Assembly: GCA_016928835.1 (NCBI GenBank)
Contig: JAFGJW010000012.1
Coordinates: 1 to 64,000 of the forward strand
Length of the DNA stretch: 64,000 nt
DNA from: Candidatus Woesearchaeota archaeon
GTDB taxonomy: Archaea; Nanobdellota; Nanobdellia; Woesearchaeales; GW2011-AR15
Direction: 5' to 3'
Made by a program: the position numbers. Below, piece after piece: positions 15,001 through 24,000 of the stretch. Positions within the stretch are counted from its first letter, which is position 1; every line of letters begins with the position of its first letter.

Positions 15001-18000
15001 GCTTCACAACAAGCAGCCTACAATATACGGAGACGGCAAGCAGACACGTGACTATGTCTTTGTTAAAGACGTCGTGAATGCAAATCTTCTGGCAATGCAG
15101 GACGGTGACAATAATGCCTTTAATATCGGAACTGGCAAAGAGACTAATGTAAATGAATTATTTGCATCAATGAAAAAAATAATAGGTTATACAGGAGAAG
15201 CAAGATACGCAGATGCACGAGCAGGTGAATTGCAGAGAAGCTGTCTTAATATAGCAAAAGCAAAGAAACTTTTAAAGTGGGAGCCAATGTTTACCCTAGA
15301 GCAAGGTTTAAAAGAGACGATTGAGTGGGTCAAGGGTTGTTGATTCTCTAATTACTCGTAAGCCTTAGATCTCTTATCTATCTTTACAATCCCAACTACG
15401 TTCTGAGAATAATCTACTTCATAAAGGATTCTATAATCTCCAGCCCGTATCCTATATAGTTTTATCTTATAGCCCTCTACAGATTTGGAATCGTGCCCAA
15501 TCGGCTCTTTTTTCAAACTTTTCACTTTATCAATGATTCTATCTGCGAGGGTTTTGTCACAAGATTTTAGAAATTTTAGCGCCTTTTTGGAATACTCGAC
15601 ATCAAACATCAAGTTCCCTCAGTACGTCCGCCTCTTTAACTAGTTTCCCTGATCTTTTTTGTTCCCTATACTCAAGTAAATCTTCATAATCCTCTTCAGT
15701 CATGATTGTATCTGCGTCGACCATGTGGTTTTTAATATATTCAACATCCTTTCTTAAGGAATTGATCTCGTTCTGTATTTTATCGTATGGAATTGCTTCG
15801 CTCATAATTTTATTGTAAAAACTTTCTATTATTTAAATTTTAGGGCAGAGAATGAAAGAGACAATTGAGTGGATCAAGGGTTGTTAAGCTGCTTTTTGGA
15901 AAAGAAGATTTTTCTTTTCTCTTCTTCCTCTCTTTCTTCTAAGCAGTCGTAGCAATCTCTTTCTTCAATTCATTAATTCTTTCCTTTAAGAATTCTTTTG
16001 TCCTTTTATTGTCAAGAGGATGCATTATTTCTCCGCATTCCGGGCACTTGAAATGGAACTCAAAGGCCCTGTCAAATTCCATTCTGGAGCAAGCATTGCG
16101 GCACATATAGAACTCTGCGCCCTCCTCTTTCTCCAGCCTTTCCTCAAGCTTGGTGAGCCGTTGTCTTTTTATCTTTTTATGGAGATGGCCTATCTGGCTT
16201 GGGTCATAATCCCAGTAGCACACATACCACCCTTTCTGCTTGTCCTTTCTCCTAAAAAAGGTAGCCAGATGGTTTTCGTAGAGCCTATAAAGAATAGTCC
16301 TTGACTCGTGAATATCCATTTTTAGATCAGCAGCAACCTTGAATTCAGAGACATGCTGCTTTCCTTTTAGATATAATACAACAGGAACAGCTTCCTCTCC
16401 TACAAGCTCAGTGGCCACTTCCTTGATAATCCTTTGTGTTATTCTCATTTTTATCCAAAATAATTAGGCATTGTTTTCTTTGTCTTCTTTGATTTTGACT
16501 TTTTTGCGTCTTTTTCCATAACACTTAAGGCTTCTGGCTTCTTTATGTTGCCATACTTTTTTTCATAATTTTTAATATTGTCTTTAAATACATTCAAAAA
16601 ATTCTTAGCAGTGTATACATCCATCATTACAACATTATGTTTTATGACTAATGGTTGGAAATCTCTGTTCCTTATGTCAACTCTGGGGGTTACACTCCTG
16701 AAGTCAAGAATAATCTTAAGAGGATTATGCATTACTCCGGCTTCATCTGCAAAAAAGACCGGCCCATTTTCTATATCTACTTTTATCTCTTTCTGTTTAT
16801 CCAGTGCAATCACCCCCGTGAAAGTTCACGGTCCTAATAGTTATGACACTTTGACTTTTTAAATGTTTTTATTATTAAACACGTTATTAAATATGTTGGT
16901 ATATTAAAAGCCATACCAATCTACTTAATAATATATTGGCAGAATAAATTATAAAATAACATATTAAGAACACATTAAATTCGGCAAACCCCTCTTTCTG
17001 TTTGCTAGTAATAGGAATGTTTCACTAGTATAAAAATGTAGTGGATTATTGTTTAGAAATAGAAAGCCTCGGATGGGACTTGAACCCACGACCCCATGCT
17101 TATTGTCTAGATACCAAGCATGTGCGCTACCAACTGCGCTACCGAGGCGGTACTCTTAAATAAAATTCTAGATTGTATTTAAAAGTTTAGTTTTACAGCA
17201 GTGACAAGTATTCAGTAAATGGTTCGCTGTATAAGAGGAAACTTTCATAGTCGCTTATCAATTTTGGAAATTCTGACCTTAGTTTCCTCACAAATTCAAA
17301 AAGCTCCTTTTTTCCTCTCACCACAATTTCAAATTCAAGATCAGCCACTCCAAATGCTTTTGTTATAAATATTATCCTCGGCTCATACCTGAGGTATGAT
17401 ATCAATTTCTGCATATTCTCTCTTGTTAGGTTTTTTAGGTACAAAAAGACTTTCTGGTGTTCATAACCAAGTTTATTTACATTGATCTTTACTTTAAACT
17501 GTCCTATTACCTGTCTTTTTATTAAATTATTTACCCTGCTGGATACTGTTCTTTCAGAGACCTTTAGGATTTTAGACAGTTGGATATAGCTGACTTTAGG
17601 GTTTCTCACAAACTCTTTCAGAATTGCTGCATCAATACTGTCAATTTGCACATTTTTCGAGGCTCCACCAACTATTATGGGATTTCTGTCTTCATTATTA
17701 TAGAGATAAGTATGCTTAAAATGATATATCTTAAATGCTATGCTCGGAAAAATGTTTTTAATATATCTCCCAAAAATGTATTTGAAATTGTCAAAATCCT
17801 CTTCTATCATATTAAGATTTTTAACCAGATAGACAATTGCCATATTGAACTCACCGTCACCAATAGCTATCCAGGATATATTTGGATTTTCTCTGGCAAA
17901 TTTTATCATTTTATTCTCAATATTTTTACTTACATCAAGATACTTGAACCACATTCTGCAAAAGAGATAACCCAATCTAACATAGTCAACAACAGTGGTA

Positions 18001-21000: not shown

Positions 21001-24000
21001 CACTGTAATCGAGGTTGTTGGTGAAGATGCTATTCCATTAGTGGAATACCTAAAAGGCAAAGAAGAGATATCTGAATTCAAGATAGCTAGAGATATTAGG
21101 GAAGAAATCCATAATGTCAGGAACATCTTGTATAAACTTAATAACTATCATTTGGCCATATATACAAGAAAGAAGGATAAAATCAAGGGATGGTATATCA
21201 GCTATTGGTCATTGAATCTGCCGAGATTCAAAGAGATATATGCGAGAATCCAGAAAGAGAAAGTTTCAAGATTAAAGGATAAATTGAAGAGAGAACAGGA
21301 ATATAGAGAAGGCCTTTACCTCTGTCCAAATCTATGCTCAAGAATGAACTTCGAAGAGGGAATGGAATTTATGTTCAAATGCCCAGAGTGCGGGAGTCTT
21401 CTGCATAAGCAGGACAACACAAAGACAATTGAGCATATTAAGTCAATGATAGAACAAATAGAAGCAATTGTTTAGGCTCTTATTATTTTAAGTAGCTTGT
21501 CCTTCATTTCTTTCATCTTATCTTTTGTCTTTGCTTCTAGGTTTAATCTTAGCAAAGGTTCTGTGTTAGAAGGTCTTACATTAAACCAGTAATCAGGATA
21601 AGCTATTGTAATCCCATCCAGTTTGTTAATCCTGCCGTCTGAAAAAGTATTTTCTATCTTTTTCATTACTGCTGCTTTATCCTTAACTACAGAGTTAATC
21701 TCACCTGAATGGAAATACTTGCGTAAAGGTCTTAGAATCTCAGAAAAAGGTTTATCAGCCAAAGAAAGCTCTTCTAGTATCTTCAGTGTTACAATCATAG
21801 GCACTTCAAAAAAGCCATAATCGGTTTTCATAAAAAAATGCCCTGATGATTCTCCTGCAAAGACCGCTCGTTCCTGAATTGCCTGAGCCTTAATCAGAGA
21901 GTGCCCGACTCTTGTGACAACAGGTATGCCTCCATTCTCCACAATCATATCATGGGTTATCATGCCAGGACGGATATCATAGCATATTTTTGAACCTGGC
22001 TGCTGTTTGAGAATAATTCTTGCCAATAAACCTCTAATTACCCAGGGCTCTGCTAATTTGCCTTTCTCATCAATGAAAAAAATCCTGTCCCCGTCCCCGT
22101 CAGTGGCGATGCCCAGATCAGCTTTTTCCTCAATAACTCTTTTTTTTATATCTATGATATTCTTTTCCTGGAAAGGATCTGCCTGATGAGCTGGAAAAGT
22201 GCCATCTAAATCAAAATTCATCTTAATCACATTACATGGAAAATTCGCGAATAATGCCTCTAAATAAGGTCCGCCCATAGCATTTGCTGTGTCTGTTACA
22301 ATCTTAAACAGCTTAAGCTTATCAATGGCTGCGTGCTTTAGAGCGTGTTTTACCTCAGCCCCTAAAACACCAGTTTCCCTAGTTACTTGACCTAACTTAT
22401 CAGCTTGTTTGAATATGTTCTGATTAACTCTTCTCTCAAGCTCTTCCATGCCTGTACCAGCTCCGAAAGGCTTTGCCTTTGCCCTCACTATCTTCACACC
22501 ATTGTATTCCTTTGGGTTGTGTGACGCAGAGACAATCATCCCGCCGTCTAAGTTTAAATAGCCAACTGCAAAATAGAATGTTGGTGTGGAAGCAAGACCA
22601 ATATCAACAACATTTACACCTTGTTTTGTCACTCCTTCAATCAGTTTTTCAGTTAACTGTGGAGAGCTAATCCTCATATCTCTTGCCACCACAATGTTCA
22701 CAATTTCTTTTTTTACTTCCTCCTTGAGCATATCTGCAAAAGCCCTGCCTATCTTGTATACAATTTCTTCATTCAACTGTTCCGGATATATGCCTCTAAT
22801 ATCATACGCTTTGAATATTGACATTATTGCTCACCTTCTAGATTGTATTTTTTTTTAAATTTACAATGGGGCAGGCCCCCTTGAACCCCCTGACAGTGCT
22901 TGGGGCTGGTAATGGGCATCCCCTTACTTAAATTTTATAAAATTTTAGATAAGAAACAAGTATTAAATATTTTCTATAAAAAAGAATGGGCCCAACGAGA
23001 TTCGAACTCGCGACCCTCCGCTTAAGAGGCGGATGCTTTGGTTCTTATCTCTAAGATAAGTCTAACCAGGCTGAGCTATGAGCCCATTGAGAATCTAGAA
23101 AATTTGCCTTGTTTAAAAAACTTTTTTATTTTTGCAATAAGGGAGTGCCATCCTTGAACCCCCCCAATAGTTGAGGGAGTTGGCAAGAGGGGCACCCTCT
23201 TACTAAATTTTTATAAGCAATAGAGTTGATTTCAAAGCAATATCGACAATTTTAAAAACAAAATTAAAATTCTGTGTAGTGTGCCCCGTTAGTGTAGAGA
23301 AGTTATTTCGCACAATCCGGCTCAGCATATGCTGCGGGAACAATCATCCGGCCCTCTCGTAATTTAATTGGAGCAAGGCTGGGACGCGGGTTCGAATTGA
23401 TATAGAATATCATCGAAAGTCCCGCACGGGGCATACTTACTTTTTCTTAAGCACTTTCACTAGACACCGGGATACAGAGGATTTACTACCCTTTTTTTCA
23501 CTGGACATTTGCGCATGAGGTATATAAACAAAGCATATTATTAATTATATTATGAAACCAGCTAACTATGTAATCAATATTGTATATGAAATCGAAAGAG
23601 AACTGAATAGAGAAGTATATGATGCATTGGACATCTTACGCAGCAGAGACAAAGCACAAATTATTTAAACCTGCAGCAAAATAAAATAAGAGATGCCTGA
23701 AAAAATCTGTCCAAAGTGTGGCTCAGAAAATGTATATGAATATCTAGAACAAGATCCAATCATTTACAAGTGCGATGTCTGCGACTTTATTGGGGAAATC
23801 AAATAAAGATTTAAAAATAGAGTCCTTTTCTGCTTCTTTATGGAACTTCCTTTTGAGAAAAGAGAGTCTAAGACATTGGTAAAAAAAGAATCTGAGTCAA
23901 GCCCCAAATTCGGAAAAAAGCCTGATGCAAGAACAGTTAAAGAACTTCTAAATTATGGCATAGTCAATATTGATAAACCTTCGGGTCCGACATCGCATCA

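What a model noticed while it worked through the whole genome (the two positions that open the first line are those of the whole stretch)
15939..21475. Two full-length TFE-alpha paralogues fixed in the family
g01139 and g01145 are both complete TFE-alpha proteins (winged helix and zinc ribbon), 42% identical. I read them as alternative or heterodimeric initiation factors that stand in for TFE-beta, which DPANN lack. Stable duplication of TFE-alpha is not part of the current picture of archaeal transcription.
Evidence so far: Both keep the four zinc-ribbon cysteines. Two strong TFIIE_alpha matches (E<1e-10) in 16 of 20 family genomes including this one, and two or three in 4 of 21 other families. 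A second, diverged TFB (g01399) is also present.
(Added by a program. Inside this text positions count along the whole contig: contig position 1 is position 1 of the stretch shown here. "Call 12" and the like, gene names such as g00115 and contig names such as C1 are that model's own, and its searches are not shown. The text may have been shortened before it was handed on; [...] marks where a part breaks off. The agent that wrote the report below was given it as the finding of a first reader that could run no searches.)

Follow-up and report, generated by a model that had tools for sequence, protein, structure and literature searches.

The report
Two TFE-alpha factors in one archaeon
A family of small-genome archaea keeps two intact, long-diverged copies of the normally single DNA-opening transcription factor TFE-alpha; they likely act one at a time on RNA polymerase under different expression control rather than as a pair, which would add a new layer of basal transcription control in archaea.

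Summary
Confirmed. 15939-16448(-) (A) and 20972-21475(+) (B) are intact TFE-alpha genes, 42% identical, each with four zinc cysteines and a predicted TFE fold. Close homologues are labelled Woesearchaeota. 16 of 20 family genomes carry both; A and B are two orthologue groups under purifying selection.

New here:
- Both descend from a relocated TFE lineage (wing Tyr to Ser/Cys/Thr). The ancestral slot behind hjc is empty in 18 of 19 family genomes.
- Two or three TFEs occur in 16 of 147 other genomes of the order and 0 of 47 from other orders.
- Five sister-family genomes keep only A-type (4) or only B-type (1), and both copies keep the clamp-, stalk- and DNA-contact residues. An obligate heterodimer replacing TFE-beta is therefore unlikely.
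- B has its own promoter and a conserved leader hairpin; A usually follows a DUF3467 gene. A second TFB orthologue is also family-wide.

Best reading: alternative monomeric initiation factors with partitioned expression (0.55). I found no report of stable TFE-alpha duplication in the searches run; the scan had not noted it on other DNA.

The parts
15939..16448 (-). tfe-A, full-length TFE-alpha (extended winged helix, coiled coil, 4-Cys zinc ribbon), 169 aa
   Evidence: AlphaFold2 pLDDT 92.7; Foldseek top hit 6kf4_G, TM 0.82
16451..16813 (-). DUF3467 gene directly upstream of tfe-A (2 bp gap), probable shared transcript; upstream of A in 13 of 18 A loci
   Evidence: co-transcription inferred
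19114..20850 (-). Gene divergent from tfe-B: N-terminal region of no named family (helix-turn-helix-like by eye) fused to a D-glutamate cyclase-like C-terminal domain; beside B in 12 of 17 B loci
20867..20882 (-). TATA/BRE-like element facing the divergent gene; visible in at least 9 of 17 B upstream regions within 170 nt
   Evidence: sequence; function inferred
20898..20911 (+). BRE-like and TATA-like promoter elements of tfe-B; a TATA-like box lies 31-43 nt before the leader G-run in 17 of 17 B loci
   Evidence: function inferred
20937..20963 (+). Conserved 5' leader element of tfe-B: G-run with Shine-Dalgarno-like 5' arm and an 8-bp hairpin (20944-20963)
   Evidence: no Rfam match
20972..21475 (+). 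tfe-B, full-length TFE-alpha, 167 aa
   Evidence: AlphaFold2 pLDDT 87.4; Foldseek top hit 6kf4_G, TM 0.73

Best explanation
These are two intact, long-diverged TFE-alpha paralogues kept across the family, and they likely work as alternative monomeric initiation factors that take turns on the one clamp-and-stalk site of RNA polymerase, under different expression control. Shown: both are whole, are predicted to fold like TFE-alpha, keep the contact residues, form two orthologue groups under purifying selection, and sit in different gene contexts, while the ancestral tfe slot is empty. Inferred from known TFE-alpha: each would bridge clamp and stalk, help melt the promoter with its wing tryptophan and displace Spt4/5; one site per polymerase means they would compete. 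Inferred and untested: B, with its own promoter, conserved leader hairpin and invariant wing, is likely the stand-alone main factor; A, usually second in an operon with a more variable wing and coiled coil, likely serves another condition or promoter set, possibly in combination with the two TFBs.
For: Contact residues from the T. kodakarensis structure (PMC7704642, results section; mapped): R51, Y55, F/Y65, R67 and W75 equivalents invariant in 18 of 18 A and 17 of 17 B; stalk-side Y/F115, D/E128 and F/Y135 kept in all; four Cys in all. A and B are each one clade (100/99, 100/98). pN<pS in 153 of 153 A pairs and 136 of 136 B pairs. On an RNA polymerase tree the family is sister to five genomes (98%); four have only an A-type and one (G053, 100% complete) only a B-type gene, so either type alone appears sufficient. 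B is more conserved than A in 98 of 120 genome pairs (wing 82% vs 65%, coiled coil 58% vs 38%); A versus B is 42% overall and 24% in the coiled coil. Contexts differ and are conserved. The B leader motif occurs once in this genome and once in each of 10 of 19 other family genomes, always at tfe-B. A TFB2 orthologue is in 18 of 19 other family genomes and forms one clade, 100/100. One TBP, Spt5 and Rpo7 gene each.
Against: No expression, binding or activity data. G007 (97% complete) lacks B and has another gene in its slot, so two copies are not indispensable; neutral dosage or backup retention fits the same data. The clamp-facing Tyr78 equivalent is Ser/Cys/Thr in both copies while the clamp coiled coil of the polymerase is unchanged, so binding may differ from the solved structure. 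The TFB2-B link rests on one sister genome, and G007 and G019 keep TFB2 without B. Synonymous sites are mostly saturated, so rate ratios are rough. Genome pairs are not independent.
Confidence: 0.55

Rival explanations
1. Interchangeable copies kept by dosage or by neutral partition of expression; no difference in protein activity or promoter preference.
For: Either type alone persists in sister families; G007 lacks B; contact residues are shared; TFE copies turn over repeatedly in the order.
Against: Fixed differences between A and B at 16 columns, and unequal conservation of wing and coiled coil across the family; retention in 16 of 20 small genomes at near-saturated synonymous distance.
Confidence: 0.22
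2. One copy (more likely A) has become a competitor or damper that occupies the clamp without fully helping melting, as TFS4 did among TFS paralogues.
For: A evolves faster; in six genomes of one A subclade two wing tyrosines are histidine. TFS4 precedent (PMC7289017, passage).
Against: The DNA-stacking Trp is invariant in 18 of 18 A; A-type is the only TFE in four sister genomes and in G007.
Confidence: 0.12
3. A and B form an alpha/alpha' heterodimer in which one copy replaces TFE-beta.
For: Co-retention in 16 of 20 genomes; no TFE-beta found; the coiled coils diverge most between A and B.
Against: Reciprocal single-copy retention in five sister genomes. Both keep the polymerase-facing surfaces. 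The known dimer uses beta's Fe-S domain (PMC4495717, passages), which neither has. The genes are unlinked in most genomes and in different regulatory contexts.
Confidence: 0.07
4. Artefact of binning or assembly, or one copy is a decaying pseudogene.
For: Metagenome-derived genomes; G003's polymerase genes fall outside the family; A's GC3 (0.46) is above this genome's 95th percentile.
Against: Both on one contig here, in G006 and in the single-contig G014; contamination 0.22%; one A and one B in every two-copy genome; no internal stops.
Confidence: 0.01

Closest known systems
Monomeric TFE-alpha of Thermococcales/Methanococcales (T. kodakarensis 6KF4/6KF9, P. furiosus 6PLN/6XJF, 1Q1H)
   Same: Same domain order and predicted fold (TM 0.82 and 0.73 to 6kf4_G), conserved clamp, stalk and DNA contacts, no beta subunit found.
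   Different: Two fixed paralogues instead of one; four-Cys ribbon instead of three Cys plus His; wing Tyr78 replaced by Ser/Cys/Thr; moved from the ancestral locus.
Heterodimeric TFE-alpha/beta (Sulfolobus, Haloferax)
   Same: Two TFE-related genes per genome; TFE level proposed as a global regulator (PMC7289017, passage).
   Different: The second gene is another alpha, with no beta-type Fe-S domain; each type occurs alone in relatives.
Paralogous TFB/TBP sets (haloarchaea, P. furiosus TFB2, Sulfolobus TFB3)
   Same: Duplicated basal factors proposed to divide promoters; a fixed TFB2 is present here too.
   Different: Here the duplicated factor is the melting factor TFE, TBP is single, and TFB2 keeps a full B-reader region.
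TFS4 inhibitor paralogue of Sulfolobus
   Same: Paralogue of a general factor sharing one polymerase site.
   Different: No loss of key functional residues is seen in either TFE copy.

Membership tests
TFE-alpha (archaeal TFIIE-alpha homologue) | N-terminal extended winged helix (PF02002) | tested here: met
TFE-alpha (archaeal TFIIE-alpha homologue) | C-terminal zinc ribbon flanked by coiled-coil helices | tested here: met
   four Cys in 18 of 18 A and 17 of 17 B; helices in models
TFE-alpha (archaeal TFIIE-alpha homologue) | Clamp, stalk and non-template-strand contact residues | tested here: met
   R51, Y55, F/Y65, R67, W75, Y/F115, D/E128, F/Y135 kept; Y78, R52, D59, K66, R81 and Y147 equivalents differ from T. 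kodakarensis; of these only Y78 is kept by single-copy type I relatives
TFE-alpha (archaeal TFIIE-alpha homologue) | NCBIfam equivalog cut-off (PRK06266 180 bits, TIGR00373 149.5 bits) | tested here: inconclusive
   full-length matches at 137/123 and 123/114 bits, below cut-off; single-copy relatives were not scored for comparison
TFE-alpha (archaeal TFIIE-alpha homologue) | Binds RNA polymerase and stimulates open-complex formation | not testable with these tools
   needs biochemistry
TFE-beta / hRPC39-like subunit | N-terminal winged helix plus C-terminal 4Fe-4S domain that binds TFE-alpha | tested here: not met
   both proteins match TFE-alpha over their length. PF05158: none in own genome, 0 of 22 relatives over cut-off; five weak hits examined are proteins with hydrophobic N-terminal segments and a C-terminal winged helix. 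PF04182: none in own genome. Neither model rang in the Haloferax control, so a halo-type beta is not excluded.
TFE heterodimer | Two subunits co-purify and are both required for activity | not tested

The most novel reading that the evidence does not exclude
The family runs a two-by-two initiation system: TFE-B with TFB2 (and TFE-A with TFB1) form alternative pre-initiation complexes that melt different promoter classes, making TFE-alpha a sigma-like selector of gene programmes, with B's level set by a conserved structured leader.
Probability: 0.25. Interest if true: 0.8.

Novelty: new variant of a known kind. Interest (0 to 1): 0.57.

Why it matters
Archaeal gene control through basal factors has been described for TFB, TBP and TFS paralogues and for the level of TFE-beta, while TFE-alpha is treated as single-copy in the papers read. 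A natural pair of alpha paralogues with fixed differences in wing and coiled coil gives a direct test of whether promoter melting itself can be made promoter- or condition-specific. The hidden type I/type II paralogy also makes tfe unsafe as a single-copy marker in this order.

Tried and rejected
- Complex prediction of A with B: tool not available, no result.
- The search for related loci in genome contigs: nothing confirmed.
- Dating the A/B split: the best tree puts it before the family split from its sisters, but an A+B-only clade is not rejected (p-AU 0.18), and a tree placing A with type I on one side is equally likely (p-AU 0.51). Nine long-branch or divergent rows were left out of that tree.
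- A as the moved ancestral copy: set aside because type I is separated from type II, A and B at 100/98 (83/86 with long rows and outgroups) and A carries the wing change.
- Polymerase clamp co-variation with the wing change: none seen.
- Third weak TFE hit (C11:83725-84393): match limited to the winged helix, no zinc ribbon.
- TFE-beta candidates: rejected.
- Leader motif match in G040: it is the ribosome site and start codon of an unrelated gene, so the motif's 5' arm is a Shine-Dalgarno variant, not a TFE-specific word.
- Conserved upstream ORF in the B leader: not seen.
- Tandem-duplication origin: rejected; opposite strands, and proximity is not conserved.
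Full report
Observation. The window holds two ORFs at the stated ends: A, 15939-16448 (-), 169 aa, and B, 20972-21475 (+), 167 aa. 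Both match Pfam TFIIE_alpha and, over their whole length, the NCBIfam TFE models, though below the equivalog cut-offs. They are 42% identical. Their closest solved relatives are Thermococcales TFE-alpha by sequence and by predicted fold: pLDDT 92.7 and 87.4, TM 0.82 and 0.73 to 6kf4_G. The genome is 1.53 Mb, 95% complete, 0.22% contaminated. Named homologues are labelled Woesearchaeota or Nanoarchaeota.

Distribution. Two strong matches occur in 16 of 20 family genomes, and two or three in 9 of 41 genomes from other families of the order. In a phylum-wide sample of 201 near-complete genomes, two or more matches at E<=1e-8 occur in 6 of 7 family genomes, 16 of 147 other genomes of the order and 0 of 47 genomes of other orders (counted from the table). 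Every two-copy family genome has one A and one B. In G015 the gene that precedes A lies at a contig end, so A's absence is probably an assembly gap. G007 (97% complete) lacks B and its divergent neighbour and has another gene in the slot, which may be a true loss.

History. In other families tfe often lies directly behind the Holliday junction resolvase gene hjc (17 of 49 loci, many with short flanks). In this genome hjc runs straight into an eIF2B-like gene with no tfe between. The same holds in 17 of the 18 other family genomes where hjc was found; G011 is rearranged and G003 gave no hjc. The TFE tree splits type I (ancestral slot) from type II (other loci), with A and B inside type II, at 100/98 when nine long or divergent rows are left out and 83/86 with them and outgroups (bootstrap not fully settled, outgroup not monophyletic). 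The residue matching T. kodakarensis Tyr78 is Tyr in 19 of 19 single-copy type I proteins and Ser, Cys or Thr in all 53 type II, A and B proteins tabulated (groups were taken from the tree, three rows unassigned). Seven of the nine multi-copy genomes hold a type I plus one or two type II genes, the slot copy mostly on a long branch. Further genomes show I+II, I+II+II, II+II and I+I pairs. On an RNA polymerase tree type II is scattered (10 changes), which fits an old duplication with repeated losses or transfer within the order; I cannot tell these apart. The family (19 of 20 genomes; G003's polymerase falls elsewhere) is sister to five genomes, of which four carry only an A-type and one only a B-type gene. 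The age of the A/B split is not fixed: neither a family-only duplication (p-AU 0.18) nor an older split (p-AU 0.51) is rejected.

Are both functional? pN is below pS in 153 of 153 A pairs and 136 of 136 B pairs, with synonymous sites mostly saturated. Of the contact residues named in PMC7704642 (results section read), R51, Y55, F/Y65, R67, the DNA-stacking W75, Y/F115, D/E128 and F/Y135 equivalents are kept in all 18 A and 17 B proteins; F127 in 18 and 16. R52, D59, K66, Y78, R81 and Y147 equivalents differ from T. kodakarensis; of these only Y78 is kept by type I proteins. The clamp coiled coil of the polymerase is nearly invariant across the order. B is the more conserved copy in 98 of 120 genome pairs (64% vs 55%; wing 82% vs 65%; coiled coil 58% vs 38%; zinc ribbon equal), and 16 columns differ consistently between A and B. 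Pairs share ancestry, so these are descriptive counts.

Regulatory context. A follows a DUF3467 gene in 13 of 18 loci. B stands alone, head to head with a D-glutamate cyclase-like fusion gene in 12 of 17 loci. All 17 B loci have a TATA-like box 31-43 nt before a run of five G. In 13 of 17 the run continues into an 8-bp hairpin; I left out G003 and G004 (long insertions) and G008 and G010 (no hairpin) before counting pairs. In the 13, 95% of cells pair, two pairs show compensatory change, several show G-U change, and 9 of 500 shuffles reach that level; slid controls give 26-47%. This is modest support, since the structure was derived from these related sequences. The window copy folds at z -2.6. 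The motif is unique in this genome and, where exact, single-copy at tfe-B in 10 of 19 relatives; Rfam has no match. Its 5' arm is a Shine-Dalgarno variant, as shown by an unrelated gene in G040, and most B genes have a second such site near the start. A stabilising or translation-tuning role is my inference; the analogy to 5' stabiliser Shine-Dalgarno sites of Bacillus is recalled, and one search gave only a listing.

Partners. The genome has one TBP, Spt5 and Rpo7 gene and two TFBs. TBP is single in the 18 of 19 relatives where found. TFB2, about 60% identical to TFB1, is in 18 of 19 other family genomes and forms one clade with a full B-reader region and a changed last helix. Among the five sisters only the B-only genome G053 has a second TFB, which groups with TFB2 on long branches. 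G007 and G019 keep TFB2 without B, so the pairing is only a lead. No TFE-beta was found; a Haloferax-type beta would have been missed by these models.

Mechanism. Known TFE-alpha bridges clamp and stalk, contacts the non-template strand and competes with Spt4/5 for the clamp (PMC7704642 section and passages; PMC3223566 and PMC13502027 passages). Two proteins that both keep these surfaces would compete for one site. With either type sufficient alone in relatives, the best reading is alternative monomers with partitioned expression and probably some promoter or TFB preference (0.55). Rivals are plain redundancy (0.22), a TFS4-like damper (0.12), a heterodimer (0.07) and artefact (0.01).

Literature. 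I read passages of PMC7289017 (TFE-beta absent from DPANN; monomeric alpha sufficient; TFB and TFS paralogues), PMC5861453, PMC4495717, PMC3223566, PMC13502027, PMC13257274 and PMC3189178, and one section of PMC7704642; no supplements. Searches showed no report of stable TFE-alpha duplication. The library lacks most subscription papers, including the 2016 review PMC7616663, and genome-paper supplements may list the copies without comment. Earlier scan notes held nothing on this locus or sequence and one unrelated TFE note.

Verdict. A real, family-wide and order-recurrent duplication of a basal factor usually treated as single-copy: a new variant of the known theme of paralogous initiation factors. 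Interest 0.57.

Noticed in passing
window 17065-17148 (-): Intron-containing tRNA-Thr(GGT) upstream of the DUF3467-tfeA pair; missed by the default ARAGORN run, found with the intron option and by Rfam.
   Followed up: partly
window 19114-20850 (-): Unnamed N-terminal region fused to a D-glutamate cyclase-like domain, head to head with tfe-B in 12 of 17 loci and not found in three family genomes that lack B; possible ligand-sensing regulator.
   Followed up: partly
G000:C19:18931-19857 (-), L092: TFB2 orthologue fixed in the family; several members have a leader hairpin with a Shine-Dalgarno-like loop ahead of the real site.
   Followed up: partly
window 15352-15805 (-): ParE-family toxin gene behind a small acidic ORF, probable toxin-antitoxin pair inserted between tfe-A and the epimerase that usually faces it.
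   Followed up: no
window 17193-18164 (-): Double Lrp/AsnC-type regulator, 323 aa.
   Followed up: no
L034, L048, L059 (G039); L204-L206 (G119); L207-L208 (G235): Another family (f21) has two or three TFE genes in 4 of 4 sampled genomes, with its own second type II clade.
   Followed up: partly
L033, L039, L015, L025, L026, L003, L018: Several TFE proteins carry long lysine-rich C-terminal extensions (237-293 aa total).
   Followed up: no
L143 (G003:C74): RNA polymerase genes of G003 group outside the family although its TFE and TFB genes group inside; possible misbinned contig.
   Followed up: no
L209:1090-1479; G000:C1:65910-66290 (-): Conserved 130-aa protein without a Pfam match, 67% identical between G040 and this genome, divergent from a histone gene in G040.
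   Followed up: partly
window 25369-25445 (+): Another leader with a G-run near a TATA-like box and a second ribosome site near the start codon, so this layout may be general in the lineage.
   Followed up: no
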